The notes beneath the pieces are model-generated. The model was not told the origin of the DNA and ran no database searches. It saw only the letters and a list, made by a program, of their open reading frames with translations. This document shows, one piece after another, positions 35,782 through 52,101 of a stretch of DNA of 64,000 bases (positions are counted from its first letter, which is position 1; every line of letters starts with the position of its first letter). The DNA comes from an uncultured Geobacter sp. GTDB taxonomy: Bacteria > Desulfobacterota > Desulfuromonadia > Geobacterales > Pseudopelobacteraceae. The stretch is taken from contig CAZUSH010000005.1 of the NCBI GenBank assembly GCA_964622705.1, positions 11,389 to 75,388 of the forward strand, written 5' to 3'. Position numbers and translations under genes: made by a program.

Positions 35782-35848
35782 GATGCTGTTAAGAGCTACC
35801 GTACATAGGCCAGTGAAGCCGGGCTGCTGCGCAGCAGAAGACGGCGAC

Positions 35849-36469
35849 ATGCGGCATGCTTCCGCGCCGCTGAGTATCCGGCAGCAGATTGGCCCGCTGC
35901 TGCGGCGCTACGCTCCAGCCATGTTGTTAGTCCTGTTTTACCTGTATTGCCTTGCAAGTCCGGCAATCGGTCAAGAGTTTGCCAAAGCTGACCCGATCAG
36001 GATTGAAGCGGCGATTTTACGCAATTTTGCCCGCTACGTCACCTGGCCGCACCATGCCTTCAAAGATACTCATCTGGCTTGGCGTATCTGCATCCTCGGG
36101 GATGATCCATTTGGCCAGGTACTGGAAAAGACCTTTGAAGGACGTACGGAACAGGGACGTTCGTTTCAGGTATTCCGGGCAGAGACGCTGGAAGAACTAC
36201 CGCCGTGCCAGATCGTCTTTATCGCCTATCAAGACGCTGCAAAACGCCGTGCGGTCCTGGAACTGCTTAAGAAGCAACCGGTCCTGACCGTGAGTGCTGC
36301 CCCTGACTTTTTGCAAGAAGGGGGGATCATCCGCTTCAAGGTCACAGATCGGGTGGAGATGAGCGTCAACCTTGATCAGGCCCGCTCCTCCTCGCTGAAG
36401 ATTCAAACCAAGATGCTTGAGGTTTCCCGTGAAGTGCTGGAGAACGGAATCGTACGGAGGTTGAGATGA
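35849..36469 (+). CDS. YfiR/DUF4154-family periplasmic protein
   Basis: IEAAILRNFARYVTWP, ICILGDDPFG, CQIVFI, PVLTVS, GGIIRF, VNL; start uncertain (35783 possible). Confidence 0.9.
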   Translation: MRHASAPLSIRQQIGPLLRRYAPAMLLVLFYLYCLASPAIGQEFAKADPIRIEAAILRNFARYVTWPHHAFKDTHLAWRICILGDDPFGQVLEKTFEGRTEQGRSFQVFRAETLEELPPCQIVFIAYQDAAKRRAVLELLKKQPVLTVSAAPDFLQEGGIIRFKVTDRVEMSVNLDQARSSSLKIQTKMLEVSREVLENGIVRRLR

Positions 36470-37770
36470 TCCGGCTTCACGGCATGAGCATACACAACAG
36501 GCTGACATTTGCACTCTGGTGCGCTGCGCTCTTTGCCTTTGCCGCAGCAGGCGTGGCGTTGGCGCTGTTTGAGAACCTCACGCAGGAGGGACGTGCACGC
36601 CAGATCATGGAACCGTACGCGCAGCTCGTTTCCGCCGGGGCTGAAACGGCAATAGCCTTTCAGGACTCCGTGCGGGCTGAAGAGATTCTCACGCCACTGC
36701 GGGCCAATGCGCAGATTTTGACAGCAGAAATCGTTTTGCGGGATGGACGGATGTTAGCCCGCTACAGCAGTGCCGGTACCCCTTTGCAAGCCCAGCCGCT
36801 TAAACCGGACGGGATCCACCTGAGTCATGACACGGCGGAGCTGATACAGAGGTTGCATGACGATGCCCATCTGCGCCTTGTCATGAGCCTGGGTGAGCTT
36901 AACCGGCAGATGAGAAACATGCTGCTGCTCTTTGCCGCAGGGATGCTTGTCTTGCTGGTGGTCGTTACGTTGGGGTTGCGTGCGGCCCTGCAACGCGTCA
37001 TTGTCCAGCCCATCTCCGCCCTGGCCGAGACGGTTGAACAGGTTCGTATCAGGGCTGATTATCATCAACGTGTCCCGGTCTTCGGCAACGATGAGGTGGC
37101 ACGGCTCGGCCGGAGCTTCAACGCCATGATGGAGGCTGTTCAGGTGCGGGAAGATAATTTGCGTCAACTTGCGATCTTTCAGAGCACTATTCTGGACAAT
37201 GCGGCCTACGGCATCATTGCCACCACTACCGAAGGGGTTGTCAGCAGCTTTAACCGGGCAGCTGAACAGTTACTCGGCTACCGGGCCGATGAACTGGTCG
37301 GCAGACAGACGCCGATCTGCTGGCATGAAGCAGGGGAGCTGGCGCAGTACGCGCTTCATCTCTCCACAGAGCTGTCCGAAACGGTTCAGCCCGGATTTGA
37401 GGTGTTTACGACCCGTCCCCGGCGCAACCAGCCGGAAGAACATGAATGGACCTTTATCCGTAAGGACGGGACGCGTGTGCCGGTGTTGCTCTCTGTAACG
37501 GCATTGCGGGATGAAAACCGTCAGATCATTGGATTTGCCGGTCTGTGCTATGATCTCACGGAACGCAAACAGGCAGAGGAAGAACTCCGCCAACTGAACG
37601 AAGAGCTTGAGCAGCGGGTATGGTTACGTACCGCCGAACTGGCCGAAAAAAACGATGAGCTGCAGCGGATGAACAAGATGTTTGTCGGTCGGGAGCTGCG
37701 GATGGTGGAGCTGAAGGAACGGATCAGGGAACTGGAGGAACAGCTCCGGACAAACGGCAACGAAGCCTGA
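36466..37770 (+). CDS. Sensor-only protein 2: CHASE8-like-HAMP-PAS + VGREL cap
   Basis: AIAFQDSVRAEEILTPLRANAQI...DGRMLARY, HAMP (DEVARLGRSFNAM), PAS; ends FVGRELRMVELKERIRELE. Confidence 0.88.
   Translation: MIRLHGMSIHNRLTFALWCAALFAFAAAGVALALFENLTQEGRARQIMEPYAQLVSAGAETAIAFQDSVRAEEILTPLRANAQILTAEIVLRDGRMLARYSSAGTPLQAQPLKPDGIHLSHDTAELIQRLHDDAHLRLVMSLGELNRQMRNMLLLFAAGMLVLLVVVTLGLRAALQRVIVQPISALAETVEQVRIRADYHQRVPVFGNDEVARLGRSFNAMMEAVQVREDNLRQLAIFQSTILDNAAYGIIATTTEGVVSSFNRAAEQLLGYRADELVGRQTPICWHEAGELAQYALHLSTELSETVQPGFEVFTTRPRRNQPEEHEWTFIRKDGTRVPVLLSVTALRDENRQIIGFAGLCYDLTERKQAEEELRQLNEELEQRVWLRTAELAEKNDELQRMNKMFVGRELRMVELKERIRELEEQLRTNGNEA
37597..37738 (+). repeat. VGREL cap copy 2
   Basis: Only about ten mismatches to copy 1 by manual comparison. 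Confidence 0.9.
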
Positions 37771-38873: not shown

Positions 38874-40448
38874 ATGGTGGCCTCACGAAGCCCGATCATC
38901 GATAAGGTTGACAGAAAACTGGCCTTCAGTTTTGGCGCCGTGGTGCTGGTGCTGATGCTGCTGGTCACCGGAACCTCAAGTTACCTGTTCATCAGGCTGC
39001 AGTCACTGGAGGAGGATCGCCTGTCCGGGGCACTTGCGCGGATCATCGCTGAGTCGGTCAGTAAGGTCAGTTTTTCCGGCACCTACCATGCTCGACTCTT
39101 TGTTGAAGAGATCAAGGCCAAGAGTCCGGAAATCCGTTCCGTCTCACTGATATCACGGGAAGGCCGGATCATTGCCCACAGTAATCCGGCCCGCAACGGT
39201 GCGACCCTGACCGGCGAAGACCTTGCCATGCTCAGGCAGTCCTTGGCCCAAAACACGGCTGTGTCCGGTGAACGATACGCAAACGGCAACAAGGAAAAGG
39301 TTATCCTCCTTCCCTATGGCGGGGGTATCGACGCTGAAATCAACGGCGTAATACGGTTGATCATCGATGTTGCCAAAGTCAGGCAGGAACAGCGTGCCGG
39401 CATCGTTACGATGGTGGTGATTGCAACGCTACTCTCCTGTGCAGCGGTCGTACTGATTCTGCTGCTCAGCCGCTACTTCGGCTCCGCCGTCAAGGAACTG
39501 GCCATGCAACTGCAGGCAATTTTGGACAACTCGCCGGCCCTGATCTATGTCAAGGACCGGACAGGACGCTATCAGTTCGTCAACCAGGCCTGGTGCAGAC
39601 TCTTCCAGACCAGCAACGACAACGTCAAGGGCAAGACCGATCGTGAGCTGTTTCCCGAAGAGGTTGCGCTCCAGTTTATGACAAATGACCAGCGGGTGAT
39701 GACGTCCGATAGGCAACTGACCCTGGAAGAACAACTGCCGGTGGATGAAGAGATCCGCCACTACCACAGCATCAGGGTGGCTGTGCGGGACACCAACGGC
39801 GCTACCTACGGACTTTGCGGTATATCAACGGACATCTCTGAACGCAAGAAGGCTGAAGAAACACTCCGGGAAAGTGAAGAACGGCTCCAGCTTGCCACCC
39901 AGGCCGCCGGCATCGGGATCTGGGACTGGGATGTGGTCAGAAACAGACTGCTCTGGGATGAAAGCATGTACCGGCTCTACGGGCTTCGACGCGAAGATTT
40001 CAACGGCGCGTATGAGGCCTGGTTCCGCTGCATCCATCCCGATGACGCAGCGTTGACGGATCATGCCATCCAGGCCGCCCTGAGCGGCGAAAAGGAGTAC
40101 GCCCCGGAGTTTCGCATCGTTCGACCGGACGGCGCTGTCCGGCTTATCCAGGCAGCCGCCAAGACCTTCCGGGATCAGGAGGGTAAACCGCTGCGCATGA
40201 TCGGCATCAATCTGGATATCACCGAACAAAAACAGTCGGAAGAGAGGATTCGGCTCTTGAACGAGCAGCTTGAACAGCGGGTGCAGGAGCGCACCGCCGA
40301 GCTGGAGCAGAAAAACAGCGAGCTTGAGCGGATGAACAAACTTTTTGTCGGCCGGGAGTTGCGGATGATGGAATTGAAGGAGCGGATCAGGGAGCTGGAG
40401 GGCGCCATGTGCACTGCGGACGTCACCAGGCCGGCCAAGGGCGATTAA
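38874..40448 (+). CDS. Sensor-only protein 3: TM-periplasmic-TM-PAS-PAS + VGREL cap
   Basis: Two TMs, PAS (KDRTGRY...TDISERK), PAS_3 (GIWDWD...IHPDD...LDITEQK); ends FVGRELRMMELKERIRELE. Confidence 0.88.
   Translation: MVASRSPIIDKVDRKLAFSFGAVVLVLMLLVTGTSSYLFIRLQSLEEDRLSGALARIIAESVSKVSFSGTYHARLFVEEIKAKSPEIRSVSLISREGRIIAHSNPARNGATLTGEDLAMLRQSLAQNTAVSGERYANGNKEKVILLPYGGGIDAEINGVIRLIIDVAKVRQEQRAGIVTMVVIATLLSCAAVVLILLLSRYFGSAVKELAMQLQAILDNSPALIYVKDRTGRYQFVNQAWCRLFQTSNDNVKGKTDRELFPEEVALQFMTNDQRVMTSDRQLTLEEQLPVDEEIRHYHSIRVAVRDTNGATYGLCGISTDISERKKAEETLRESEERLQLATQAAGIGIWDWDVVRNRLLWDESMYRLYGLRREDFNGAYEAWFRCIHPDDAALTDHAIQAALSGEKEYAPEFRIVRPDGAVRLIQAAAKTFRDQEGKPLRMIGINLDITEQKQSEERIRLLNEQLEQRVQERTAELEQKNSELERMNKLFVGRELRMMELKERIRELEGAMCTADVTRPAKGD
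40260..40401 (+). repeat. VGREL cap copy 3
   Basis: Colinear; Phe codon at offset +84 as in all copies. Confidence 0.85.
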
Positions 40449-40463
40449 AAGGGGATAACCACC

Positions 40464-43229
40464 ATGCCGTCTTGCAGACATATTTTCTGTCGGACACTGC
40501 TGTTCCTGCTGCTTGCCGCCGCCTTCCCGGTGCATTTTCCAACGCCGGCGCTTGCCCATGCCCAGGTTCAAAAGCGGGAGAACATCCTCGTCCTTCATTC
40601 CTACAGTCAGGATTTCATCTGGACCCGTTCGCAACAGGAGGGGATCGACGCCGTCTTCGGGTCGCTTGCCGCCGCATACGACGTGCAGATCGAGTACCTG
40701 GATGCGGTGCACTACCCGGAATTGCTGCAAGACCCCCGCCTGCTCGACATCCTGCGGGCCAAGTACCCGAACCGGCATTTCAAGGTAGTGCTGACCTCGG
40801 ACAACGCCGCGTTCAATTTTGCCCGCGCCCATCGCGCCGAACTCTTCCCCGGCGTACCGATCGTCTTCATGGGGGTAAACGGCTATACGGACAGACTGCT
40901 GCAAGGGGAGAAGGGGATTACCGGCGTGGCCGAGGACACCGACCTCGCCGGGACGCTCAAGGTGCTGCAACAACTGCTGCCCCGGACCAAACGGATTGTC
41001 TTCCCCGGCATGACGGACGACATTACCTATCACGCCATCCGCGCCACGATCACCAAGGAACTCACGGTGCTCCCGCCGGAGATCAGGACCGAATTCCCGG
41101 AGTATCCTGATGTGGATGCAGCCCTTGATGCCTTGCGGAAACTCCCGCCGGATGCGGCAATCGTCATCATGACCAACATGCGCACCCGCAACGGCCAGGG
41201 GATCAGCAGCCAGCGTGTCGTGGAGCTGGTCTCGGCGGCTGCGCCGGTCCCGGTCTTCACGAACTGGGACTTCACGGTCGGCCACGGGGCAACGGGTGGG
41301 AGCGTCATCAGCGGCGTCGAGCAGGGACGCCAGGCAGCGGAGATCGCGTTGCGGGTACTGCGGGGTGAACGTCCCGAGTCGATTCCGGTACGTCGCGGGG
41401 CCGGTAAGGCGTTGCTGTTTGACTACCGGCAACTGGTCCGGTTTGACATCCCGTCGTCACGTCTGCCGCCGGGGAGTGTCGTGCTGTTTGCGCCGGAGCG
41501 TATCCTGCGGATCTCACGCGAAACGGCCTGGGCGGTCGGTATCTCGTTTGTGTTACTGCTCGGCGTCACCGTTTCGCTGGTGCTCTCGGTACGGCGCCGC
41601 CGACGCGCCGAAGAACAGGTCCGCGTGATCAACCGGGAGCTGGAGTCGACAAACAGCGCGCTTGGTATCGAGATTGAAGGACACCGGCAGGCCGAGAGAA
41701 AACTCTCCCGCCTGAACCGGGAGCTCAGGGCCATCAGCAACTGCAACCAAGTGCTTATCAAGGCCGAGGATGAACAGACCCTTCTGAACGAGGTCTGCCG
41801 CATTGTCTGCGACGAGGCCGGCTACCGTATGGCATGGGCCGGCTATCCGGTGCATGATGAGGCGAAGACCTTGCAACCGGCTGCTTGGGCCGGAGCCGAG
41901 GACGGCTATCTTGTAAACGCCCAACTCACCTGGGCCGATACGGAACGGGGACAAGGTCCCGGTGGAACGTCGATTCGTACCGGAAAGAGCTGCTGTATCC
42001 AGGATTTTGCCACCGATCCCCATGCCGTCCCTTGGCGGGAGAGCGCCTTGCAGCGCGGCTACCGCTCGTGCATAGCGCTTCCGTTGAAAAGCGTTGAAAA
42101 CAGCGTCTTCGGCGTGCTGGTCATCTATTCCACGGAACCCGATGCCTTTACCTCTGACGAAATCCGGCTCATGGAAGAGCTGGCGGGGGATCTCGCCTTC
42201 GGCATCAGGAGCCTGCGCACCCGCAATGCCCGCAAGGAGGCGGAAGATGCACTGCATATCCAGACCGTTGAACTTGAGCAGGAGATGGCGCAGCGGCAGC
42301 GCGCCCAGGAAGAATTGCAGCAATTGAATAACGAGCTTGAGCTGCGTGTCAGGCAGCGGACCAGTGAGCTCTCCGATAAAAACAACGAACTGCAAAAGGC
42401 CTACGATGAGTTGAAAATCACCCAGACACGGCTGCTGCAGCAGGACAAGATGGCCTCCATCGGCCAATTGGCCGCCGGAGTAGCCCATGAGATAAATAAT
42501 CCGATGGGATTCATCAGCAGCAATCTTTCCAGTCTTGGCCGCTATACGGAGAAGCTTGCCGCCTATCTGGAGGACGGCGAACAGGCGATTGCCGCTGCTG
42601 CGCCGGAACTGGGCGAGACGCTGGCCCAGCAGCGTAAGGCGTTGAAGATCGACCGGATCCTCCAGGATCTGCCGGAGCTGATCAACGAATCCCGTGACGG
42701 CGCCGAGCGGGTGCGGCGGATCGTACAGGATTTGAAGAATTTTTCCAGGGTTGATGCCAAGCAGGTACATGCCGACCTGAACGAAGGGCTGGAGAGCACC
42801 CTGGCCATCGTCTGGAACGAACTGAAGTACAAGGCGACGGTAACCAAGGACTATGGCACCTTGCCGCCCGTCTGTTGCAATCCGGGACAGATCAACCAGG
42901 TATTCATGAACCTGCTGATAAACGCGGCCCAGGCGATCGAAAGCCTGGGCGAGATACGCATACGCACCTGGAGCGAAGACAACAGCGTCCATGTTTCCAT
43001 CAGTGACACCGGCTGCGGCATTCCTGAAGAGGTGCGCAGACATATCTTTGATCCCTTCTTTACCACCAAGGAAGTGGGCAAGGGAACCGGCCTTGGGCTG
43101 GCCATTGCCTATGACATTGTCGTCAACAAACATGGCGGCAAGATTGATCTGCAGAGCGAAGCCGGGAAGGGGACAACCTTTACCATCACCTTGCCGATCA
43201 CACCCCGGGAACAGGAGATGCCGACTTGA
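40464..43229 (+). CDS. Histidine kinase: periplasmic ABC_sub_bind-like domain-TM-GAF-HisKA-HATPase (NtrB class)
   Basis: [41 protein letters not shown]. Confidence 0.92.
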
Positions 43230-43879
43230 GTGCGCACGACAAACCATCCGAAACGATTTTCTCGATGCTCACCATCACGGCCCTGGTGCTCGGTATCTAC
43301 ATCAGCGGCCAGTATAGCTTTCTTTTGTTCCACGGACTCGTCGAGCTCGTCAGCATGTATGACGTTGCCAACAAGCTCGGCCACATCGCCAAGCTGGTGG
43401 CGTTCTATCTGATGTACCGGGCGATACTCGTCACCGGTCTCAAGGAACCTTTTGAAGTTGTCTTCAGAACGTAAAAGCCAACGGAACAGGAACTGCGCGA
43501 GTACCAGGAAACCCTGGAAGAACGGATCAGGGAACGGACCGTGCAACTGGAACTTGAAATCACCGGACACAAACAGACCGAGGAAGCGCTTCAGCTTCAA
43601 ACCGCCGGACTTGGACAGGAGATGGCCAAGCGGCAGAGGGCGCAAGAGGCGCTGCAGCAAAAGGCGATCCTGTTGAAAAAAGAGAGCGAAAAACGGCAAC
43701 AGGCTCAGGAAGAACTGGAAAAATTGAACGAGCAACTGGAGCAGCGGGTACAGCAGCGTACTGCCGAACTGGAGGCAAAAAACGTCGAACTATCCCGCAT
43801 GAACAAGATCTTCGTCGGTCGAGAGCTGAAGATGATCGAGCTGAAAGAGCGGATCAGAGAGCTGGAAAACGAGAGGTAA
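43226..43879 (+). pseudogene. Sensor-only protein 4 (pseudogene): internally deleted MASE3 + in-frame TAA + VGREL cap
   Basis: 43226-43474 and 43541-43879 are in the same frame, separated by TAA at 43472; MASE3 N- and C-ends joined directly. Confidence 0.8.
43727..43868 (+). repeat. VGREL cap copy 4
   Basis: MNKIFVGRELKMIELKERIRELE; colinear. Confidence 0.85.
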
Positions 43880-43885
43880 TATTTG

Positions 43886-45901
43886 ATGATCACGGATCAT
43901 GCCCCTACGGCGGCAACCGGATTTACCCCGAGCGACGGACATCTCAACCGCGCCTTGTACGCTGCAACGACAGTCGGTATCCTGTTCGGAATCTACGCGA
44001 GCAGCCTGTATAACTATCTTTTGTTTCACAGCCTGGTCGAAGTTGCGACGGTTGCCGTCGCCTTTGCCCTGTTTGCCTTCACCTGGAGCGCCCGCCGTTT
44101 TCTGAGCACCGGTTGCCTCAAGGTAATCGGCATCGGCTACGGCCTGATAGCCCTGATTGACCTTTTGCATACCCTGGCCTATAAGGGTATGGGCGTTTTC
44201 CCGGGCTATGATGCCAACCTGCCCACCCAGCTCTGGATCGCCGCTCGTACCCTGCAGGCGATCCTGCTCTGCATCGCACCGCTCTATGCCCGGCGCAATC
44301 TTGATGAACGGCATTTCTTCATGCTTGCCCTTGTTGCAACGGCAACCGCTACGGCACTGGTCTTTGCCGGGGTGTTTCCCGACTGCTTCATCGAGGGCAA
44401 GGGACTCACTCCCTTCAAGATTGCAGCAGAATACGTCATCAGCGCCGTCCTTGTCGCTGCGCTCGCACTTTTCGTTAGTGTGCGGACGTCGTTCAACAGC
44501 AGGGTGTTCGTGCTCCTGGTTGCCGGGATCCTCTGTACCATCGGTTCCGAATTGGCCTTTACCTCCTACATCAGTGTCTATGGTCCCGCCAACATGGCGG
44601 GGCACCTTCTGAAGCTGGCCGCCTTTGCCCTGGCCTACCTGGCTCTGATCGATACCGGCTTCAAGGAGCCGTTTGAACTTGTTTTCCGGGACCTGCAACA
44701 GGCCGGACAGCGGTTGCGCGAGCATCAGGAAACCCTGGAAGACCGGATCAGAGAACGGACCGCTGCGCTTGAAAGCATGAATGAGACCCTTGCAGAGGAG
44801 GTGCGGGAGCGTATCCGGGCCGAGGATGCCCTGCAGCGCCTGAACCGCGAGTTGCGTGCCGTCAGCACCTGCAATCAGGTGTTGATGAAGGCGGTGGACG
44901 AGGCCGGCCTGCTGGCTGAGATCTGCCGGATTGTCTGCGACGAGGCCGGCTACCCCATGGCCTGGGTGGGCTATCCCGAAAACGATGCGAACCGGACCGT
45001 ACGGCCGATTGCCTGGGCCGGTGTGGAGGGGGACGCGCTTGCAACGGCACATGTCAGTTGGGCCGACACCGAACGGGGATATGGCCCTGCCGGCGTGGCG
45101 GTCAGAACGGGCAGGGTGGATTGCTCGCAGGACTTCAGTGCCGACCCGCGTATGCTCCCCTGGCGGGAAAAAGTCCTGCAGCGGGGATATCACTCCTGCA
45201 TTGCCTTGCCGCTCAAGGATGATCGGGCGGCGGTCTTTGGCGTGCTGTGCATCTATTCGACGGAAGTAAATGCCTTCACGCCGGATGAAACCCGGCTTCT
45301 GGAGGAACTGGCGAACGACCTGGCATTTGGCATGTGCATGCTGCGAAGTCGCAAGGCTCGTAAAGAGGCTGAACAGCGAAGTGTTCTCCTTAGTTTTGCT
45401 CTCGATAACGTACGCGAGGCGACCTTTCTGATCGACGAACAGGCGTACTTTCACTACGTCAACGAAGAGGCGTGCCGTCTGCTCGGCTACAGTCGCGACG
45501 AATTGCTCGGTCTTGGTGTGGCCGATGTGGACCCTGATTTTCCACGGGAACTCTGGCCGGCGCATTGGGCGGAACTGAGGCAACACCGCTCCCTCACCTT
45601 TGAGGGGCGGCACAGAACCAAGGAGGGTACGCTCATTCCGGTTGAGATCAACGCCAACTACCTGGAGTACGACGGCCGGGGGTTCAATCTGGCCTTGGTG
45701 CGCAATATCACCGAACGCAAGCGTTCGGAAGAGGAAATCCGAAAACTTAATCAGGACCTGGAACAACGCGTAACAGAACGTACCGCCGCGCTTGAGGCGA
45801 AAAACCTGGAACAGGAAAAGATGCTCAGGGCGTTTGTCGGCAGAGAGCTGAAGATGGTCGAACTGAAAAAGAAGATTGAACAGCTTGAGAAATCATCCTG
45901 A
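43886..45901 (+). CDS. Sensor-only protein 5: MASE3-GAF-PAS + VGREL cap
   Basis: NYLLFHSLVE...LHTLAYKGMG...TQLWIAAR MASE3 signature, GAF, PAS; ends FVGRELKMVELKKKIEQLE. Confidence 0.88.
   Translation: MITDHAPTAATGFTPSDGHLNRALYAATTVGILFGIYASSLYNYLLFHSLVEVATVAVAFALFAFTWSARRFLSTGCLKVIGIGYGLIALIDLLHTLAYKGMGVFPGYDANLPTQLWIAARTLQAILLCIAPLYARRNLDERHFFMLALVATATATALVFAGVFPDCFIEGKGLTPFKIAAEYVISAVLVAALALFVSVRTSFNSRVFVLLVAGILCTIGSELAFTSYISVYGPANMAGHLLKLAAFALAYLALIDTGFKEPFELVFRDLQQAGQRLREHQETLEDRIRERTAALESMNETLAEEVRERIRAEDALQRLNRELRAVSTCNQVLMKAVDEAGLLAEICRIVCDEAGYPMAWVGYPENDANRTVRPIAWAGVEGDALATAHVSWADTERGYGPAGVAVRTGRVDCSQDFSADPRMLPWREKVLQRGYHSCIALPLKDDRAAVFGVLCIYSTEVNAFTPDETRLLEELANDLAFGMCMLRSRKARKEAEQRSVLLSFALDNVREATFLIDEQAYFHYVNEEACRLLGYSRDELLGLGVADVDPDFPRELWPAHWAELRQHRSLTFEGRHRTKEGTLIPVEINANYLEYDGRGFNLALVRNITERKRSEEEIRKLNQDLEQRVTERTAALEAKNLEQEKMLRAFVGRELKMVELKKKIEQLEKSS
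45749..45890 (+). repeat. VGREL cap copy 5
   Basis: Colinear, most divergent copy. Confidence 0.8.
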
Positions 45902-45943
45902 TTGCGCCGGATTATACAGCCGGCAGGCACAAGGAGAGGAACC

Positions 45944-46813
45944 GTGCGATCCATATTGCATAAAATCATTTTCGTCTGCCTGCTGCTGTGTTCTTTGTCG
46001 CTATCCCGTATGCTCTGTGCAACCGCCCTGGCTGTTGAAGAACCTGCCCCGGTCTACACCTTTGGGGTGGTGCCCCAGTTTGAACAGCGCAAACTCTACG
46101 CCATCTGGCAACCGATCATTGCCGAACTGACCAGACGTACCGGCTTCAAATTTAAGCTGGTTACAACGTTGAGCATTGAAAGCTTTGAAAAGGAGTTTAT
46201 GAGCGGTGGATTTGATTTTGTGTATATGAACCCCTACCATATTCTGAAGGCTCCCCGTTATCTACCGCTGGTTGCCGATACCGTGCCGTTGCGCGGCATT
46301 CTCGTGGTCCGCCGGGATTCACCGCTACGGAGCCTCAAGGAGCTGGAGGGAAAGGAGGTCGCCTTTCCCTCGCCCAACGCCCTGGGCGCCTCTTTGCTGA
46401 TGCGGGCGGACCTCGCACGGGTGCAGCGGATCAAGGTGAAGCCGCTGTATGTCAAGACGCATAGTTCGGTCTACCTGCATGTTGTGCAAGGGCTGACGGC
46501 AGCCGGTGGCGGGGTTGAAAAGAGTCTGAGCGAACAGGCGCCGGCCATCCGCAATGCCCTGCGGGTCATCTATACGACACGGGAGATGACGCCGCATCCC
46601 GTCGCGGCCAATCGGCGCATCCGGCCAGCTGACCGGGAGAAACTGCGGCAGGCCCTGCTGGCGATGGACGCGACCCCGGAAGGAAGGGCGCTGTTGGCGA
46701 ATATCCCCACCAAAGGGCTCATGCCGGTTTCCCGGGCCGACTATGAGCGGATGCGCGCCTGGGGGCTGGATGCCTACTGGGTCGACCTGTGGAAATCAGG
46801 GGCGAACCGATGA
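45944..46813 (+). CDS. PhnD-like periplasmic substrate-binding protein (orphan)
   Basis: Signal peptide; FGVVPQ, YMNPY, ELEGKEVAFPSPNALGAS, THSSVY; GTG after GGAGAGG. Confidence 0.88.
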   Translation: MRSILHKIIFVCLLLCSLSLSRMLCATALAVEEPAPVYTFGVVPQFEQRKLYAIWQPIIAELTRRTGFKFKLVTTLSIESFEKEFMSGGFDFVYMNPYHILKAPRYLPLVADTVPLRGILVVRRDSPLRSLKELEGKEVAFPSPNALGASLLMRADLARVQRIKVKPLYVKTHSSVYLHVVQGLTAAGGGVEKSLSEQAPAIRNALRVIYTTREMTPHPVAANRRIRPADREKLRQALLAMDATPEGRALLANIPTKGLMPVSRADYERMRAWGLDAYWVDLWKSGANR

Positions 46814-48423
46814 ACCTGCGCGGTAAGATCTTTCTGCCATTGGCGCTGCTCAGCGCCCTACTCTTCCTGTTCCTGTACGGATACTGGTTTCCGAAGTCTC
46901 TGCACAACTTGGAACAAGAGGAATTGCATGCGACCGCGCAACATCTGAGCAGCGTTGCAGAAGGGCTGGTGCCGCTATTACTGGCGCATCAACTGGACAC
47001 GCTCTATGCAAACCTTGACTCCCTGCACAGCCAAAACAGGGATTGGGTCGCCATCCGCCTGGTCGATGCCGACGGCAGATTGCTCTATCCCCTGCAGGAA
47101 ACACCGCCTGTAGCCGATGACGACAACCTGCGCACGCTTGAACATCGCATACAGTTCCTCGGCAACGACTTGGGAAAACTCTCGCTGACCATCAACCTTT
47201 CTTCGGCCGTCACACCGATGCAGACGCGGTATCGGCAGCTCGTCACCGCTTTGCTGATGGTGCTCTGCGGGTATCTTCTCAGTATCGGCTATGTGGTGGA
47301 ACGCGTGGTGAGACGACCGGTCAACCGTCTTGCCTACGCGGCCGCGAAGATTGCACAGGGTGATTTCGAGCTGCCCCTGGTAAAGACCGGCAATGACGAA
47401 GTGGGAACACTGGTAGACAGTTTTGCCGCCATGCGGAATGCCATCCGGGACTATCAGGAGACCTTGCTGGTACGTAATCGTGCGATCGGCAGGCTGTCCC
47501 AGGCTGTGGAGCAGAGCCCGGTTTCCATTGTGATCACCGATCTCGAAGGACGGATCACCTTCGTTAACCCGGCGTTCAGCCGGATAACCGGTTATACCCC
47601 TGAAGAGGTGTTGGGGCGAAATCCCCGCATCCTCAAGTCGGGCATGACGAGCGCGGACGAATACGCGGCCTTGTGGCGAAGCATCAGCGCGGGCGGGACA
47701 TGGTCCGGCGAGTTCTGCAATAAACGGAAAAGCGGAGAATTGTACTGGGAGTCGGCCTCCATCGCACCCATTTTGGATGAAAACGGAACGATTACTGCCT
47801 ATCTGGCGCTAAAAGAGGATATCTCCGAACGGAAGCTGGCTGAAGATACCCTGCGTAAAACGGCAGCGCGTCTGAGCGAAGCCCAGCGTATTGCGCAGAT
47901 GGGAAACTGGGAGCTTGATCTCACCTGCTGGCGTTTCTCTTGGTCTGATGAGGTGTATCGCATCTGCGAGGTCGATCCGGCAGCGTTTGAGGCCTCCTAT
48001 GAGGCGTTTCTCCAGCTGGTCCATCCTGATGACCGCGAAACGGTCGATGCCGCCTACCACACTGCCGTCAGGACCCGGACCTTTTATTCGATCGATCATA
48101 GATTGCTCTTGGCCGGAGGTAAGGTAAAATATGTCCACGAACAAGGTGAGACATGCTACGAGCGTGAAACGCCGGTTCGTTTTGTGGGAACCGTACAGGA
48201 CATCACCGAGCAGAAGCTGGTGGAGGAACGACTGCGAACCCTCTCGGCCGAACTGGAACAACGGGTCAGCGAGCGGACTGCCGAACTGCAGGAGAAGTAT
48301 GCGGAGCTTGAACGCCTGAACAGGCTGTTCGTTGGAAGAGAGTTGCGGATGGTGGAGTTGAAAGAGCAGATTAAGGCGCTTGAGCAACGGGCAACGGGTG
48401 TCAACTACAGTAACGATGCATAA
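46810..48423 (+). CDS. Sensor-only protein 6: TM-periplasmic-TM-HAMP-PAS-PAS + VGREL cap
   Basis: HAMP (DEVGTLVDSF), PAS (AVEQSPVSIVITD...GRNPRILKSG), PAS_3; ends FVGRELRMVELKEQIKALE. Confidence 0.88.
   Translation: MNLRGKIFLPLALLSALLFLFLYGYWFPKSLHNLEQEELHATAQHLSSVAEGLVPLLLAHQLDTLYANLDSLHSQNRDWVAIRLVDADGRLLYPLQETPPVADDDNLRTLEHRIQFLGNDLGKLSLTINLSSAVTPMQTRYRQLVTALLMVLCGYLLSIGYVVERVVRRPVNRLAYAAAKIAQGDFELPLVKTGNDEVGTLVDSFAAMRNAIRDYQETLLVRNRAIGRLSQAVEQSPVSIVITDLEGRITFVNPAFSRITGYTPEEVLGRNPRILKSGMTSADEYAALWRSISAGGTWSGEFCNKRKSGELYWESASIAPILDENGTITAYLALKEDISERKLAEDTLRKTAARLSEAQRIAQMGNWELDLTCWRFSWSDEVYRICEVDPAAFEASYEAFLQLVHPDDRETVDAAYHTAVRTRTFYSIDHRLLLAGGKVKYVHEQGETCYERETPVRFVGTVQDITEQKLVEERLRTLSAELEQRVSERTAELQEKYAELERLNRLFVGRELRMVELKEQIKALEQRATGVNYSNDA
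48244..48385 (+). repeat. VGREL cap copy 6
   Basis: Colinear; Phe codon at offset +84. Confidence 0.85.
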
Positions 48424-48453: not shown

Positions 48454-50412
48454 ATGACCTTTTCATTGTCTCCCCTCATGCTGCTTTTGCTGCTTTCGAT
48501 CGCCATTCAGGCTGCTGCGGCAATCATGGCGATCCGCCTGATCGGCATTACCGGCAGGCGGGTTGCCTGGTGCCTGATCGTTACGGCACTGCTGCTGATG
48601 TCGGTACGACGGATAATACCGCTCTATCGTCTGCTGGTCGGGGAGCAGCCTTATACGCCGGACCTGTTGAACGAACTGATCGGGTTGGCTTTGTCATGTG
48701 CCATGGCCATAGGCCTTGCGCTGATAGCGCCGCTTTTTCTGGAACGTAAACGGGTAGAAGATGAGCTGCGCCTTACTGCCGACGAGATGCGGGATCTGTA
48801 TGATCATGCCCCCTGTGGCTATCACTCTCTGGATGACGACGGTCGCTTTGTCCGCATCAATGCCACCGAGCTGCAGTGGCTGGGGTATCAACGGGATGAA
48901 GTCGTTGGCAGGATGCGCTTTGCCGACCTGCTGACGCCGCGCAGCACGCAGGTTTTTGCAGATACGTTCCCGCGTCTTAAACAGGAGGGACGGGTCAAGG
49001 ATCTGGAGTTGGAGCTGGTGCGCAAGAACGGTACGATCTTGTCGGTGCTGTTGAGCGCCAGCGTGGTGCTCAATCGGGACGGCAGTTGTCTGATGAGCCG
49101 TTCGACCGTCTTTGATATCAGCGACCGTAAGAAAAACGAGGAGGCGGAACACGTGTTGAGTTCAATCGTCGAGTCATCGGACGATGCCATCATCGCCAAG
49201 GACCTGCAGCAGACCATCCTTGCCTGGAACAAAGGGGCGGAGCTGCTCTACGGCTATACAGCCGAGGAGGCGCTGGGGCGCTCGGTCATCATGTTGGTCC
49301 CGCCGGAGCGGTACGGTGAGCTGAACGACATCATGGCAACGATTCGGAGCGGGGAACGAGTCGAGCATTTAGTGACCGAGAGAATACGCAAGGGGGGGGA
49401 GCGGATCTCGGTGTCGTTGACCGTATCGCCGATCAGGGATGCAGACGGTGAGATTCTAAGGGCTTCGGTTGTTTCACGCAATATCACGGAAGAGATGCAG
49501 CTGGCCGCACAACTGAAACAGCAGCAGCTTCATCAGGAAGAGCTGGTGCAGCAGCGCACAATGGAGTTAATGGAGCGCAGCCGCGAATTGCAGGAAAACC
49601 AACAGGCCCTGATGAACATCGTGGATGACCTGAACCAGAAAACTGAAGAGTTGGAACAGGCCAACGCCAAGTTGCAGGAACTGGATCAACTGAAATCCTT
49701 GTTCATCGCCTCCATGAGCCATGAACTGCGTACCCCGCTTAACTCGATCATCGGCTTCTCCAGTATCCTGAAGGATGAATGGCTCGGCCCGATCAACCAG
49801 GAACAAAAGGAGAATCTGGCCACCATACTGCGTTCCGGGAGGCATCTGCTCAACCTGATCAACGATGTGATCGATGTCTCCAAGATTGAGGCGGGCAGAA
49901 TCGAAGTACGCCTTGAGGAATTTGATCTGTACGACCTGTTGAAGGAAGCGGTACAATACGTTGAAAACGATGTTCGCGAGAAAGGCTTGAGGCTTGAACT
50001 GCAGTTGCAGCACCATGCCCTGCGCACCGATCGGCGCAGGCTTTTGCAGAGTGTGCTGAATTTTTTGAGCAATGCCGTCAAGTTCACAGAGCGGGGCTGC
50101 ATAACCCTTGCGTCGAGCATTGAGGCCGCCCGTCCGGAAAGACCGGGGTGCGTTGCCATCTCGGTCGTCGACACCGGTATCGGCATTGCAGAAGCCGATA
50201 TCGAGCGACTTTTCAGGCCGTTTGTACGCTTGGAGTCCCCCCTGAAAACCTTGGCGCCGGGGACCGGGCTCGGTCTGTATCTGACCAAGAAATTGATTGA
50301 GGATGTACTGGACGGGACCATCACCTGTACCAGCACACACGGTGCAGGAAGCACCTTTACCCTGACGATTCCGGAGCGGCTCAATGAAAAAGGTACTGGT
50401 TGTAGAGGATAA
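48454..50412 (+). CDS. Histidine kinase: 3TM-PAS-PAS-long coiled coil-HisKA-HATPase
   Basis: SMSHELRTPLNSIIGFS, NFLSNAVKFT, VVDTGIGI, FRPF, GTGLGL; no attached REC. Confidence 0.93.
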   Translation: MTFSLSPLMLLLLLSIAIQAAAAIMAIRLIGITGRRVAWCLIVTALLLMSVRRIIPLYRLLVGEQPYTPDLLNELIGLALSCAMAIGLALIAPLFLERKRVEDELRLTADEMRDLYDHAPCGYHSLDDDGRFVRINATELQWLGYQRDEVVGRMRFADLLTPRSTQVFADTFPRLKQEGRVKDLELELVRKNGTILSVLLSASVVLNRDGSCLMSRSTVFDISDRKKNEEAEHVLSSIVESSDDAIIAKDLQQTILAWNKGAELLYGYTAEEALGRSVIMLVPPERYGELNDIMATIRSGERVEHLVTERIRKGGERISVSLTVSPIRDADGEILRASVVSRNITEEMQLAAQLKQQQLHQEELVQQRTMELMERSRELQENQQALMNIVDDLNQKTEELEQANAKLQELDQLKSLFIASMSHELRTPLNSIIGFSSILKDEWLGPINQEQKENLATILRSGRHLLNLINDVIDVSKIEAGRIEVRLEEFDLYDLLKEAVQYVENDVREKGLRLELQLQHHALRTDRRRLLQSVLNFLSNAVKFTERGCITLASSIEAARPERPGCVAISVVDTGIGIAEADIERLFRPFVRLESPLKTLAPGTGLGLYLTKKLIEDVLDGTITCTSTHGAGSTFTLTIPERLNEKGTGCRG

Positions 50413-50785
50413 CAGCGATAATCTGCGCTTGATCAGCTATGCCCTGCGTCGCTGCGGTTACGAGGTGCTAGCTGCCGATACCGGTGAAAAGGGGGTGGAA
50501 CTGGCTGTCAGCGAGCACCCCACCTTCATCATCATGGATATCAACCTGCCCGATATCGACGGCCTGGAGGCCACTCGGCGCATCCGCAAAAGCGGGGCCA
50601 ACGGCAGTATCCCGATTATTGCCATCACCTCCTACGCCATGGCCGGCGATATGGATCAGGTATTGTCTGCCGGTTGCACCGGTTATTTTGAAAAGCCGAT
50701 CGATCCGTTGACTATCATGGACAAGATCCATGCCCTGTTGGGTATCGTGTCGCCGAACGCGGACGGAACGGGGGACTCGCCATGA
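50384..50785 (+). CDS. Single-domain response regulator (DivK-like)
   Basis: VVED, IMDINLPDIDG, AITSYA, FEKP. Confidence 0.93.
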   Translation: MKKVLVVEDNSDNLRLISYALRRCGYEVLAADTGEKGVELAVSEHPTFIIMDINLPDIDGLEATRRIRKSGANGSIPIIAITSYAMAGDMDQVLSAGCTGYFEKPIDPLTIMDKIHALLGIVSPNADGTGDSP

Positions 50786-52101
50786 AGGTTCTGATTGTTG
50801 AAGACAACGCAAGCGCCAGAAAGCTGTTACGGTTGACGCTTGAGCACTACGGTTGCACGGTGATCGAGGCCCAGGATGGGGTGGAGGGGCTGGAACTGGC
50901 AGGTTGCCACACACCGGAGGTTATCATCTCAGATGCCCTGATGCCGCGCATGGATGGTTTCCAATTGCTCAGGGCCCTTAAAGCGGAGCCGGCGCTGCAA
51001 TCCATCCCGTTCATCTTTTACTCATCCACCTACACCGGCGAGAAGGAACAGACGTTGGCCCTTTCGCTCGGCGCTGAGGCATTTATTAACAAGCCGGTGG
51101 AGCCAACTGAGCTGTGGGAACGTACCTGTGCCATCATGCGAGATTGGGAATCGCGCCGGAAGACGCCGGCCCATCCGGTGGAGCAACGCAAAGATGAACA
51201 ATTTCTGCGCGAGTACAGCCAGGTGGTGGCCACCAAGCTGGAGGAAAAAGTCAGTGAGTTGGAAGATGCGCTGGCCTTGCGTAAACAGGCTGAAGAAGAA
51301 CTCCGGCGTCTGAATAATGAACTGGAGCAGCGCGTTGCCCTTGAGGTGGAAAAAAACCGGGCCAAGGATCATATTCTGGCCCACCAGGCCCGTCTGGCCG
51401 CCATGGGTGAAATGCTCAGCAATATTGCCCATCAGTGGCGCCAGCCCCTAAATAATGTCGCCTTGATTATTCAGAATCTGCAGGCTGAATTTACCGATAA
51501 ATGCCTGACTCAGGCCGCCTGCGACGAATTTACGGAGGAATGCCTGAAGATGCTGGGGTATCTGTCGCACACGATCGACACCTTCTGCGGATTTTATCAA
51601 CCTGACCACGAGCGGCAGTCGTTTGAGTTGAGGCAGGCCATCGCCGAGTCGCTTGGGCTGGTCCAGGCCGATCTTGAGGCCTGCGGCATTGTCGTCTCGC
51701 TGGCTACATCGTGCGATCTGGTCATTCACGGCTACCGCAAAGAGTTTTTGCAGGTGCTGTTGAGTCTCGTGCAGAATGCCAAGGAAGCGCTCTTGCTGCA
51801 GCAGCCGTCTCAGCCGTTGATAGAAATCAGCTGTTTACAGGAGGGAGAGCGTGCCGTGCTCAAGGTTGCCGATAACGGCGGTGGCATCCCGCCTGAGGCT
51901 ATGGATAAGATCTTCGATCCTTACTTCACGCGTAAATTTAAGGCGCAAGGGGTGGGAATGGGCCTCTATATGGCCAAAATGATTATTGAGAGGCATATGG
52001 GCGGTCATATTGCCGTCGCTAACCGGTCCGATGGCGCCGAAGTAACCATCAGCCTCCCGTTGGCAGGAGTCTCTGAGTACACAGGGGGCGTTCAGAAGTA
52101 A
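50782..52101 (+). CDS. N-terminal receiver + histidine kinase
   Basis: VED, ISDALMPRMDG, NKP; IAHQWRQPLN, DNGGGI, FDPYFT, GVGMGL. Confidence 0.92.
   Translation: MKVLIVEDNASARKLLRLTLEHYGCTVIEAQDGVEGLELAGCHTPEVIISDALMPRMDGFQLLRALKAEPALQSIPFIFYSSTYTGEKEQTLALSLGAEAFINKPVEPTELWERTCAIMRDWESRRKTPAHPVEQRKDEQFLREYSQVVATKLEEKVSELEDALALRKQAEEELRRLNNELEQRVALEVEKNRAKDHILAHQARLAAMGEMLSNIAHQWRQPLNNVALIIQNLQAEFTDKCLTQAACDEFTEECLKMLGYLSHTIDTFCGFYQPDHERQSFELRQAIAESLGLVQADLEACGIVVSLATSCDLVIHGYRKEFLQVLLSLVQNAKEALLLQQPSQPLIEISCLQEGERAVLKVADNGGGIPPEAMDKIFDPYFTRKFKAQGVGMGLYMAKMIIERHMGGHIAVANRSDGAEVTISLPLAGVSEYTGGVQK

What the first reader, a model, noticed from the sequence alone, without database searches (positions are those of the whole stretch)
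48454..50412. Likely hub kinase with a distinctive 'ALMNIVDDL' coiled-coil segment
Seen: between the second PAS and the H-box lies an unusually long helix, QLKQQQLHQEELVQQRTMELMERSRELQENQQALMNIVDDLNQKTEELEQANAKLQELDQLK (motif at ~49600-49635). It is absent from the other two kinases. This is the last kinase before the single-domain regulator, whose start overlaps its 3' end. Inference: the hydrophobic-acidic ALMNIVDD patch is a plausible partner for the basic GRELRM cap.
Basis: inference. Interest (0 to 1): 0.6.

Follow-up and report, generated by a model that had tools for sequence, protein, structure and literature searches.

The report
Kinase socket helix for plug-in sensors
This histidine kinase carries a short conserved helix motif that in many bacteria is encoded right beside sensor proteins that have no enzyme part and end in a matching helix, so six separate sensors here probably plug into this one kinase by a docking mode not found in print.

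Summary
ORF 48454-50412 is a 2TM-PAS-PAS-HisKA-HATPase kinase whose PAS-to-H-box linker models as one 98-residue helix. It holds a Q-R-T signalling-helix signature followed by ALMNIVDDL, a motif found once in the 3.67-Mb genome.

The same genome has six proteins ending in the FVGREL(R/K)M cap, all just upstream in this cluster. None has an output domain.

In 201 genomes of the order, 31 of 33 with a strong motif also have caps, and 25 have them upstream on the same contig. In 381 genomes of the phylum, 30 of 33 box-positive genomes are cap-positive (about 5 expected), and in 27 the box lies within 5 kb of a cap.

The box also precedes GGDEF, HD-GYP, PP2C and sensor-less hybrid kinases, so it travels with caps rather than with one kinase family. 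A congener protein fuses one of this window's cap sensors directly to this kinase's transmitter at the signalling helix.

Physical binding is not shown; the one complex prediction gave no verdict. Half of the cap-positive genomes show no box. I found no description in print. Earlier unchecked notes of this scan report the same pairing in other genomes.

The parts
48454..50412 (+). Hub kinase: 2 predicted N-terminal helices (TM-like), PAS, PAS, long helix, HisKA, HATPase_c (652 aa, P0001)
49486..49779 (+). Single continuous helix, residues 345-442: linker plus first helix of the dimerisation/phosphotransfer domain
   Evidence: AlphaFold2 model
49525..49590 (+). Signalling-helix-like heptads with a Q-R-T signature (residues ~358-379)
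   Evidence: signature defined in PMC1592074 (passages)
49576..49659 (+). The 'box' (socket) segment used in profile A5; core ALMNIVDDL at 49606-49632
49720..49722 (+). Codon of the phospho-acceptor His423 in S-H-E-L-R-T-P-L
30608..33448 (+). Cap sensor 1 (946 aa, HAMP/PAS/GAF-type sensor, no output domain); cap at 33299-33403
36466..37770 (+). Cap sensor 2 (434 aa; YfiR-associated N-terminal sensor, HAMP, PAS); cap at 37636-37740
38874..40448 (+). Cap sensor 3 (524 aa; Cache-like, PAS, PAS); cap at 40299-40403. It is 72% identical to the sensor half of the fused kinase P0032
43541..43879 (+). Small coiled-coil-only ORF (112 aa) ending in a cap (43766-43870); a mosaic of linker pieces, possibly a recombination remnant
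43883..45901 (+). Cap sensor 5 (672 aa; MASE3, GAF, PAS); cap at 45788-45892
46789..48423 (+). Cap sensor 6 (544 aa; HAMP, PAS, PAS); cap at 48283-48387. The model gives one C-terminal helix, residues 473-536
50384..50785 (+). Single-domain response regulator; overlaps the kinase's end by 29 nt
50782..52101 (+). REC-HisKA-HATPase kinase. The same receiver plus REC-kinase pair follows the box kinase in the 6 related loci whose downstream genes were scanned (L001, L004, L005, L006, L010 and this window)
40464..43229 (+). Second kinase of the cluster (921 aa; ABC_sub_bind, GAF, HisKA, HATPase_c) without box or cap
29700..30611 (+). Periplasmic binding-protein gene ahead of cap sensor 1. Similar partner genes lie at 35783-36469 (YfiR-like), 37786-38838 and 45902-46813 (Phosphonate-bd), and a TonB-dependent receptor at 33445-35781
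   Evidence: Pfam only for 45902-46813; the other assignments come from likeness to L001 genes, and NCBIfam

Best explanation
The ALMNIVDDL segment is the 'socket' (box) of a split sensor-transmitter system. Six neighbouring sensor proteins have no output domain. Each ends in a signalling helix prolonged by a four-heptad 'plug', the FVGREL(R/K)M cap. The proposal is that the caps dock side by side on the box-bearing coiled coil just above the kinase's phosphotransfer helices. Ligand-driven changes in any of the six sensors would then shift that coiled coil and set the kinase/phosphatase balance, as a fused sensor would. The signal would then pass to the overlapping single-domain receiver and the REC-kinase behind it. 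What is shown: the anatomy, the uniqueness of box and caps in the genome, their co-occurrence and gene order in many lineages, and the existence of fused forms. What is inferred: direct cap-box contact, its geometry (most likely a four-helix bundle in register with the R-T signature), and the sign of regulation.
For: 1. In this genome there are 6 caps and 1 box, all in one co-directional cluster.
2. In the order sample of 201 genomes, 33 have a full-length box at E<1e-10. Of these, 31 have a cap match and 25 have caps upstream on the same contig and strand within 20 kb.
3. In the phylum sample of 381 genomes with the broad profiles, 30 have box and cap, 3 box only, 30 cap only and 318 neither. 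Independence would give about 5 with both. In 27 of the 30 the box is within 5 kb of a cap, and 17 of those 27 box sequences were not used to build the profile.
4. In 5 of 5 distant genomes tested, the only strong box hit in the whole genome lies 0.2-3 kb downstream of the cap. In G417 the profile found such a box that my regex had missed.
5. The box goes with caps whatever the output. Outputs seen are three HisKA subtypes, sensor-less hybrid kinases, TM-box-GGDEF, HD-GYP, SpoIIE/PP2C, and one small kinase with several tandem boxes.
6. P0032 is 72% identical (369/512) to cap sensor 3 up to the R-T signature. It then continues as this kinase's box and transmitter. The same sensor is therefore wired in cis or ends in a cap.
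7. Register: the cap Arg lies 21 residues after the R of the R-T signature in 148 of 158 caps that have one. The box starts 17 (48) or 10 (9) residues after it in 57 of 60 boxes. This places the box Ile/Leu in the same layer as the cap Arg.
8. Conserved box residues (Ala, Asn/Tyr, Asp/Glu-Asp, Asn) and cap residues (Val, Gly, Glu) fall on non-core heptad positions. This is my reading.
9. The caps are under protein-level selection. In the 12 core codons of the six copies there are 92 identical, 71 synonymous and 17 non-synonymous codon pairs out of 180.
10. Caps sit on sensor-only proteins worldwide. There are 15,579 cluster representatives at E<=1e-3. Of the best 150, 142 end within 40 residues of the C-terminus. 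No kinase, cyclase or phosphodiesterase family is among the 25 commonest Pfam families of 148 of them.
Against: No binding has been demonstrated.

In the phylum sample, 30 of 60 cap-positive genomes have no detectable box. Several of these caps, the variant that ends in a short Y-P-L-D-F-type tail, are followed by HisKA_3 kinases without a box. Others are followed by unrelated genes.

3 of 33 box-positive genomes have no cap in each sample (G185 and G117; G218, G290 and G544). In G119 and G155 cap and box lie more than 200 kb apart.

The box persists in fused kinases where the sensor is in cis, so it must also work without a cap, or else accept further caps.

Related genomes are not independent. 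Part of profile A5 came from sequences first found next to caps, which is circular for those 10 genomes.

Subtype co-variation has exceptions: L016 pairs a canonical cap with a Tyr-type box.
Confidence: 0.55

Rival explanations
1. The cap sensors do act on the box-bearing kinase, but the cap does not touch the box. The box is only the family mark of output proteins that accept trans sensors. Contact is made elsewhere (PAS-PAS, the signalling helices, the catalytic domain) or through a third protein.
For: Co-occurrence and synteny show linkage of the genes, not of the residues. Kinase and sensors both carry PAS domains and R-T helices that could pair.
Against: In minimal pairs the output protein has little besides the box. 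Examples are the TM-box-GGDEF of 310 aa, hybrid kinases with no recognised sensor domain, and HD-GYP proteins with the box in an N-terminal coil. Only the cap and the box are shared across all these architectures.
Confidence: 0.2
2. The ALMNIVDDL segment is only an intramolecular signalling linker of one kinase subfamily, an extension of the signalling helix and the phosphotransfer helix. Its association with caps reflects common descent and co-transfer of one gene island.
For: The helix is continuous with the phosphotransfer helix. The segment belongs to a transmitter cassette conserved at 70-100% identity among 41 relatives with varied sensors. Fused kinases keep it. Presence is patchy within genera and both elements are gained or lost together.
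Against: The box also occurs before GGDEF, HD-GYP and PP2C outputs and before two other HisKA subtypes, at N-termini with no sensor upstream, and in tandem copies. In these proteins everything else differs, yet a cap gene is adjacent. At least 18 families of the phylum show the pairing.
Confidence: 0.12
3. Cap sensors are dominant-negative partners. One cap-sensor chain exchanges into the kinase dimer through the homologous R-T helix. This forms a mixed coiled coil that leaves the kinase with a single phosphotransfer helix pair and switches it off.
For: Cap and box occupy the same register after the R-T signature, and BLAST aligns them as alternative continuations of the same helix. An Arg at a core position and a Gly should weaken a cap homodimer (my reading).
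Against: There is no direct evidence. Six sensors each titrating one kinase is an odd design. Box-bearing GGDEF and HD-GYP enzymes also need dimers.
Confidence: 0.08
4. The cap proteins are decayed kinases or silent sensor cassettes that recombine with the expressed kinase at the repeated helix-coding DNA. The cap has no function of its own.
For: The helix-coding DNA is repeated 5-9 times in the cluster at 61-86% identity. ORF 43541-43879 is a mosaic of linker pieces. A fused form exists in a congener.
Against: All six are intact ORFs. Cap core codons differ mostly by synonymous changes, 71 against 17. The cap is kept at the C-terminus of thousands of proteins in many phyla. It also sits on REC, CheB-CheR and Ser/Thr-kinase/STAND proteins.
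Confidence: 0.03

Closest known systems
Signalling helix (S-helix) of Anantharaman, Balaji and Aravind 2006 (PMC1592074; abstract and passages read)
   Same: Kinase and caps both carry a heptad helix with the R-T (E-R-T) signature directly after PAS/GAF/HAMP/REC domains. The Arg sits at a core 'd' position, as the paper describes.
   Different: [quoted passage not shown] Here six proteins end four heptads after it. The cap and the box are extra conserved segments that I did not meet in the passages I read.
Chemoreceptor-CheW-CheA arrays (recalled, not tested)
   Same: Many sensors with variable input domains share one conserved helical end and feed a single kinase.
   Different: No MCP signalling domain, CheW or CheA appears among the 8 cluster ORFs scanned. 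The kinase is a class I HisKA enzyme with its own PAS sensors. The proposed contact is a short coiled-coil pair.
Stand-alone sensors encoded beside their kinase, e.g. H-NOX with HnoK (search listing and abstracts only)
   Same: A sensor protein without an enzyme domain controls a separately encoded kinase from the same operon.
   Different: Those sensors are single globular domains that bind the kinase by family-specific surfaces. Here a portable helix pair is shared by PAS, GAF, HAMP, Cache, MASE3, REC, CheB-CheR and other inputs, and by several output types.
Stressosome RsbR paralogues (recalled; a Vibrio stressosome paper appeared only in a search listing)
   Same: Paralogous sensors with different N-terminal inputs share one conserved C-terminal module that inserts them into a common hub.
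   Different: The shared module there is a STAS domain in a large icosahedral complex. Here it is a helix of about 35 residues, and the hub is an ordinary kinase.
Split histidine kinases (PMC3591291; title and abstract from a search listing)
   Same: The functions of one sensor kinase are distributed over separate polypeptides.
   Different: As I recall that work, the split there lies within the kinase core. Here the core (HisKA plus HATPase_c) is intact, and the split lies between sensor and transmitter.

Membership tests
Class I (HisKA-type) sensor histidine kinase | HisKA dimerisation/phosphotransfer domain with the H-box histidine | tested here: met
   Pfam HisKA at residues 414-481, E 2.5e-21. 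S-H-E-L-R-T-P-L at 422-429.
Class I (HisKA-type) sensor histidine kinase | HATPase_c catalytic domain | tested here: met
   Pfam HATPase_c at residues 526-642, E 5.4e-24.
Class I (HisKA-type) sensor histidine kinase | Autophosphorylation and transfer to a receiver | not testable with these tools
   Supported only by context: a receiver gene overlaps the 3' end.
S-helix (PMC1592074) | Helical heptad segment of about 40 residues after a sensor domain | tested here: met
   Helix 345-442 in the kinase model and 473-536 in the cap-sensor model.
S-helix (PMC1592074) | E-R-T signature in the central heptad | tested here: inconclusive
   The kinase has Q-R-T. The six caps have E-R-T (3), Q-R-T (1) and L-R-T (2). 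R-T is invariant and the first residue varies.
S-helix (PMC1592074) | Lies between two signalling domains | tested here: not met
   Met for the kinase (PAS to HisKA). Not met for the six cap proteins, which end 14-26 residues after the cap.
Cap/box 'plug-in sensor' pairing (unnamed; known to me only from this scan's own unchecked notes) | Sensor-only protein ending in the V-x-R-E-x-x-M-x-E-L cap near its C-terminus | tested here: met
   6 of 6 in the window. 142 of the best 150 worldwide end within 40 residues of the C-terminus.
Cap/box 'plug-in sensor' pairing (unnamed; known to me only from this scan's own unchecked notes) | Neighbouring output protein carrying the A-[LM]-x-[NY]-[IL]-x-[ED]-D box | tested here: met
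   One box in the genome, 1.2 kb downstream of the last cap. The box is adjacent to a cap in 27 of 30 co-occurring genomes.
Cap/box 'plug-in sensor' pairing (unnamed; known to me only from this scan's own unchecked notes) | Physical docking of cap on box | not testable with these tools
   The one complex prediction returned no verdict.
Chemoreceptor-CheW-CheA array | MCP signalling domain, CheW and CheA | tested here: not met
   None among the Pfam hits of 8 cluster ORFs.
Split histidine kinase (core split) | Phosphotransfer and catalytic domains on different polypeptides | tested here: not met
   Both are on ORF 48454-50412.

The most novel reading that the evidence does not exclude
Cap and box are a general, portable plug-and-socket pair of helices. 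It wires thousands of sensor-only proteins (PAS, GAF, HAMP, Cache, MASE3, REC, CheB-CheR, Ser/Thr-kinase/STAND) in trans to whatever output carries the box: histidine kinases, diguanylate cyclases, HD-GYP phosphodiesterases, PP2C phosphatases. Co-varying subtypes give specificity, and tandem boxes or competing caps give many-to-one integration. This window would be a six-input example.
Probability: 0.45. Interest if true: 0.85.

Novelty: new variant of a known kind. Interest (0 to 1): 0.72.

Why it matters
Sensor proteins with no output domain are very common, and how they signal is mostly unknown. The cap profile alone finds 15,579 cluster representatives. If the cap docks on the box, one simple rule would assign partners to thousands of such orphan sensors from sequence and gene order alone. 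It would also show how a single kinase, cyclase or phosphatase integrates many inputs without gene fusion. It would explain why the same sensor is found fused in one strain and capped in another. Finally, it would give a small natural helix pair for rewiring bacterial sensors. For this genome, it predicts that one kinase reads six sensors, four of them paired with periplasmic binding or YfiR-like proteins.

Tried and rejected
**Complex prediction.** The input was two copies of kinase residues 345-485 plus two copies of cap-sensor residues 476-544, each with its own alignment. Searches were not accepted because the queue was full. The score was 0.00 and the verdict was 'no answer'. It counts neither for nor against binding.

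**Solved structures.** A sequence search of the PDB with the cap found nothing meaningful (best E 0.17).

**Cap as a mimic of the H-box helix.** R-E-L-R resembles H-E-L-R. However, the hydrophobic positions upstream are out of register by three residues (my reading), and no cap gives a HisKA hit. I dropped it as homology.

**NCBIfam hits of the caps.** The caps hit NahK and NosR-family linker regions. These hits cover only the R-T helix part and do not identify the cap.

**One-to-one residue co-variation.** Cap R-E-F-R-[IV] goes with a Tyr-type box in L014, L015, L038 and L059, and M-V-G-R-E with a Tyr-type box in L030, L048, L050 and L056. L016 breaks the simple rule, and the pairs are few and related.

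**Gene conversion or silent cassettes.** Rejected by the codon test.

**Literature searches.** I searched for S-helix and kinase terms, Geobacter sensors lacking outputs, six motif strings searched inside words (the one hit was unrelated), stand-alone PAS, coiled-coil and heteromeric, 'no output domain' and variants, H-NOX/HnoK, and 'kinase-less', 'docking helix', 'split histidine kinase' and similar. None showed the cap, the box or their pairing. The library lacks most subscription journals, so 'not in print' means only 'not found in these searches'.
Full report
**What is at the coordinates**

Pfam finds two PAS stretches (the second at residues 236-347), HisKA at 414-481 and HATPase_c at 526-642. 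NCBIfam gives only generic kinase likeness, all below the curated cut-offs.

An AlphaFold2 monomer model (45-row alignment, mean pLDDT 81.8) shows two long N-terminal helices and two PAS folds. It then shows one unbroken helix from residue 345 to 442, which runs straight into the H-box helix.

That helix starts with a signalling-helix-like stretch carrying Q-R-T. After one more heptad comes ALMNIVDDL at residues 385-393, nt 49606-49632. The single-domain receiver 50384-50785 overlaps the kinase's end by 29 nt, and a REC-HisKA-HATPase protein follows at 50782-52101.

A long linker is not unique to this kinase. The other two kinases of the cluster have about 85 and about 93 residues between their last sensor or receiver domain and HisKA. 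What is unique is the motif. It was found once in the 3.67-Mb genome by regex and once by the 41-position profile A2 at E<=1.

**The caps**

Six ORFs of the window end in a conserved segment, consensus E-L-x-x-K-N-x-E-L-E-R-M-N-K-x-F-V-G-R-E-L-R-M-V-E-L-K-E-R-I-x-E-L-E. It lies 14-26 residues before the stop. These are the only matches in the genome at E<=1. A seventh regex match is an unrelated internal site on another contig.

Five are sensors with no output domain:
- 30608-33448
- 36466-37770 (YfiR-associated sensor, HAMP, PAS)
- 38874-40448 (Cache-like, PAS, PAS)
- 43883-45901 (MASE3, GAF, PAS)
- 46789-48423 (HAMP, PAS, PAS)

. The sixth, 43541-43879, is a 112-aa coiled coil whose DNA is a mosaic of neighbouring linker pieces.

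The model of the 544-aa sensor ends in one 64-residue helix, residues 473-536. Four of the sensors are preceded by genes for periplasmic binding or YfiR-like proteins.

**The motif belongs to a transmitter cassette, and the same sensor can be fused or capped**

A word-indexed search with residues 348-420 found 41 proteins among 223 candidates. All 41 have HisKA and HATPase_c, and sources name them as Geobacteraceae, Desulfuromonadaceae, Pelobacteraceae, Trichlorobacter or Geobacter. The 18 I read have different sensor parts joined to a near-identical segment running from the box to the end of the kinase.

P0032 is the telling case. It is 72% identical (369/512) to the window's cap sensor 38874-40448 from residue 1 up to the R-T signature. 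From there it is nearly identical to this kinase's box and transmitter. One sensor is thus wired in cis in one strain and ends in a cap in this one. BLAST even aligns cap and box as alternative continuations of the same helix.

**Caps mark sensor-only proteins**

The same kind of search with the cap of ORF 46789-48423 gave 270 proteins among 1055 candidates. Of the best 120 listed, 0 carry HisKA or HATPase_c. They carry PAS, GAF, HAMP, Cache, MASE3, REC or solute-binding domains.

A broad cap profile (A6, 34 sequences) run against 1.84 billion cluster representatives found 15,579 at E<=1e-3 and 785 at E<=1e-10. Of the best 150, 142 end within 40 residues of the C-terminus, and the 5 internal ones all have two matched stretches. 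I dropped the two lowest-ranked of the 150 to meet a size limit. In the remaining 148, the commonest Pfam families are PAS (77 members), GAF (13), REC, HAMP and PocR (9 each) and dCache (8). No kinase, cyclase or phosphodiesterase family is among the 25 commonest of the 34 families found.

In related loci the cap also ends other protein types:
- REC-only proteins of 202-205 aa
- giant Ser/Thr-kinase/AAA/TPR/GAF/PAS proteins
- CheB-CheR-PAS proteins, with a variant that has a short extra tail

The six window copies differ mostly by synonymous changes in the 12 core codons: 92 identical, 71 synonymous and 17 non-synonymous of 180 codon pairs. The protein sequence is therefore under selection, and the copies are not recent conversions.

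*Order sample.* I searched 201 genomes with the narrow profiles. Caps occur in 50 and the motif in 63 at E<=1e-3. Many weak motif hits cover only the H-box-proximal third.

Taking only full-length motif hits at E<1e-10 leaves 33 genomes:
- 31 have a cap match. The exceptions are G185, which is 71% complete, and G117.
- 25 have the caps upstream on the same contig and strand within 20 kb.
- 3 have cap and box on different contigs of draft assemblies.
- G148 has only a weak cap-like fragment 7 kb upstream.
- In G119 and G155 cap and box are more than 200 kb apart.

One search left 15 weak matches unlisted. In 16 fetched loci the usual gene order is [binding protein + cap sensor] repeated, then the box kinase. 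Where I scanned the downstream genes, a single receiver and then a REC-kinase follow.

*Phylum sample, narrow profiles.* In 401 genomes at E<=1e-8, 6 have the motif. All 6 have caps just upstream on the same contig. Caps occur in 25.

*Distant cap loci.* I then looked at 18 distant cap loci. The cap is always C-terminal, at most 29 residues from the stop. A box-like motif turned up directly downstream in quite different proteins:
- PAS-GAF-HD-GYP, with the box in an N-terminal coil
- dCache-HAMP-box-PAS-PAS-GGDEF
- a solute-binding HisKA kinase
- a 310-aa TM-box-GGDEF protein
- a hybrid kinase with no recognised sensor domain

*Broad profiles.* I built A5 (box, 24 sequences, 28 positions) and A6 (cap). 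In 5 of 5 of these genomes the only strong box hit in the whole genome is the one 0.2-3 kb from the cap. Ten further cap-positive genomes gave the following:
- 1 has its best box hit directly downstream of the cap (G417; the regex had missed it, so the find is independent).
- 3 have the box on another contig.
- 6 have no box hit.

.

*Phylum sample, broad profiles.* In 381 genomes at E<=1e-5, 33 have the box and 60 have the cap. 30 have both, 3 have the box only, 30 have the cap only, and 318 have neither. Independence would give about 5 with both. In 27 of the 30 the box lies within 5 kb of a cap on the same contig. The other 3 have them on different contigs. 17 of the 27 box sequences were not used to build A5.

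The newly fetched pairs add sensor-less HisKA-HATPase-REC-Hpt hybrid kinases, HD-GYP proteins and SpoIIE/PP2C phosphatases. They also add a small kinase whose N-terminus carries several tandem box-like units. Two of these units reach profile significance, and others are visible in the printed sequence. Kin are not independent, so I give no P-value. The pairing recurs in at least 18 families, and only these two short segments are held in common.

**Anatomy that bears on mechanism**

The cap Arg lies exactly 21 residues (three heptads) after the Arg of the R-T signature in 148 of 158 caps that have such a signature within 45 residues. The box begins 17 residues after it in 48 of 60 boxes, and 10 residues after it in 9 more. 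The box Ile/Leu therefore falls in the same layer as the cap Arg.

The following is my own heptad reading of the alignments, so it is inference. The invariant cap Arg sits at a core 'd' position, as the S-helix Arg does according to PMC1592074 (passages). It is preceded by a conserved Gly. Hydrophobic residues spread over more than the a/d stripe. In the box, the most conserved residues (Ala, Asn/Tyr, Asp/Glu-Asp, Asn) lie mostly outside the a/d core.

Both features suit a helix that packs against other helices rather than a plain two-stranded coil. They would place the cap Arg next to the box's acidic pair.

Subtypes also change together:
- M-V-G-R-E-type caps go with A-M-L-Y-type boxes in 4 loci.
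- F-[VI]-D-R-E-F-R-I caps go with A-M-Q-Y boxes in 3 loci.
- Caps with R-E-E-[RK]-M-I go with R-R-A-M-L-N boxes in 5 loci.

There is one clear exception, L016. The numbers are small and confounded by descent.

**Most likely working**

The best-supported reading is a split sensor-transmitter system. Cap sensors are sensors whose signalling helix ends in a plug. The box is the socket on the coiled coil that leads into the output domain. Docking lets a separately encoded sensor act on the output as a fused one would. In this window, six sensors would feed one kinase, which passes the signal to the overlapping receiver and the REC-kinase.

That the genes work together I hold as very likely. Direct cap-box contact I hold at roughly even odds. 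The statement as a whole gets 0.55.

The main rivals:
- Contact is made elsewhere on the box-bearing protein (0.2).
- The box is a purely intramolecular linker and the association is co-inheritance (0.12).
- Dominant-negative strand exchange (0.08).
- Decayed cassettes (0.03).

The points against are these:
- No binding data exist.
- Half of the cap-positive genomes have no detectable box.
- A few boxes have no caps.
- The box persists in fused kinases.
- Profile A5 is partly circular.

**Comparison with what is known**

The R-T helices are S-helices in the sense of PMC1592074. That paper says the S-helix almost always lies between two signalling domains. The cap proteins break that rule, and I did not meet the cap or the box in the passages I read.

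Functionally, the closest kinds are chemoreceptor arrays, stand-alone sensors such as H-NOX with their kinases (abstracts only), stressosome sensor paralogues (recalled) and split kinases (abstract only). The cluster meets none of their defining features: there is no MCP, CheW or CheA, and the kinase core is intact.

Seven literature searches and a PDB sequence search found no description of the cap, the box or their pairing. The library lacks most subscription journals.

I had reached this reading. After that I found that earlier notes of this same scan describe the same 'plug-in sensor' pairing in other genomes, including archaea and Patescibacteria. One of them names a 'NILED' motif. Those are unchecked AI notes and not independent evidence. 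They agree with what I measured here. One of them, marked as checked later, reports a partner helix in about half to two-thirds of cases, much like my 30 of 60.

**Verdict**

The kinase is an ordinary HisKA enzyme. The interest lies in the box-cap pairing, which appears to be an undescribed variant of trans-acting sensor wiring. This window is a clear six-to-one example of it.

Noticed in passing
window 43475-43879: The small cap-only ORF is a mosaic. Its start is 92% identical in DNA to the MASE3 sensor's linker (44715-44762). Its middle is 70% identical to a linker of the 921-aa kinase (42233-42323). It ends in a full cap. It looks like a recombination product between helix-coding repeats.
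   Followed up: partly
window 38874-40448 versus protein P0032: A protein that its source names as Trichlorobacter thiogenes joins this cap sensor's whole sensor part (72% identity) to this kinase's box and transmitter at the R-T signature. In locus L007, a locus of a same-genus genome in which a 753-aa box kinase follows one cap sensor and a binding-protein gene, the genes that separate the two in this window are missing. That is an insertion or deletion bounded by helix-coding repeats.
   Followed up: partly
L052:1545-2609 (-): A small HisKA kinase directly downstream of a 691-aa cap sensor has several tandem box-like units of about 21 residues at its N-terminus. They could be multiple docking sites.
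   Followed up: no
L017-L021; also L035, L036, L040: CheB-CheR-PAS(-PocR) proteins of 1050-1176 aa and other sensors end in a cap variant with a short conserved tail. The genes next to this variant are HisKA_3 kinases without a detectable box, so this subtype may have a different partner.
   Followed up: partly
L022:3343-8307 and L023:8399-13765: Giant proteins (1655 and 1789 aa) with Ser/Thr kinase, AAA/STAND, TPR, GAF and PAS domains end in the same cap. They lie in cap arrays upstream of box kinases.
   Followed up: no
L010:6733-8989, with like-sized ORFs in L011 and L012: A trio of genes (B12-binding domain, URO-D-like, DUF1638) sits between the cap-sensor array and the box kinase in three related loci. 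It looks like a corrinoid methyltransferase-like module inside a signalling operon.
   Followed up: no
window 33445-37770 and L001:7074-11701: The unit TonB-dependent receptor + YfiR-like protein + cap sensor with a YfiR-associated N-terminal domain is conserved. In NCBIfam that sensor type is defined as part of a histidine kinase, but here it is capped instead.
   Followed up: partly
L057:4822-7746 and L058:2591-5698; L047:1-2562: There are exceptions to the C-terminal rule. In two proteins the cap is followed by about 197 residues including a V4R domain. One protein has two caps, one internal between sensor blocks and one terminal.
   Followed up: no
L012:13660-15096 and L013:12089-13525: A second, box-bearing protein of about 478-494 aa follows the main box kinase. 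After the box it continues with a different coiled coil instead of the usual H-box approach. Its nature was not examined.
   Followed up: no
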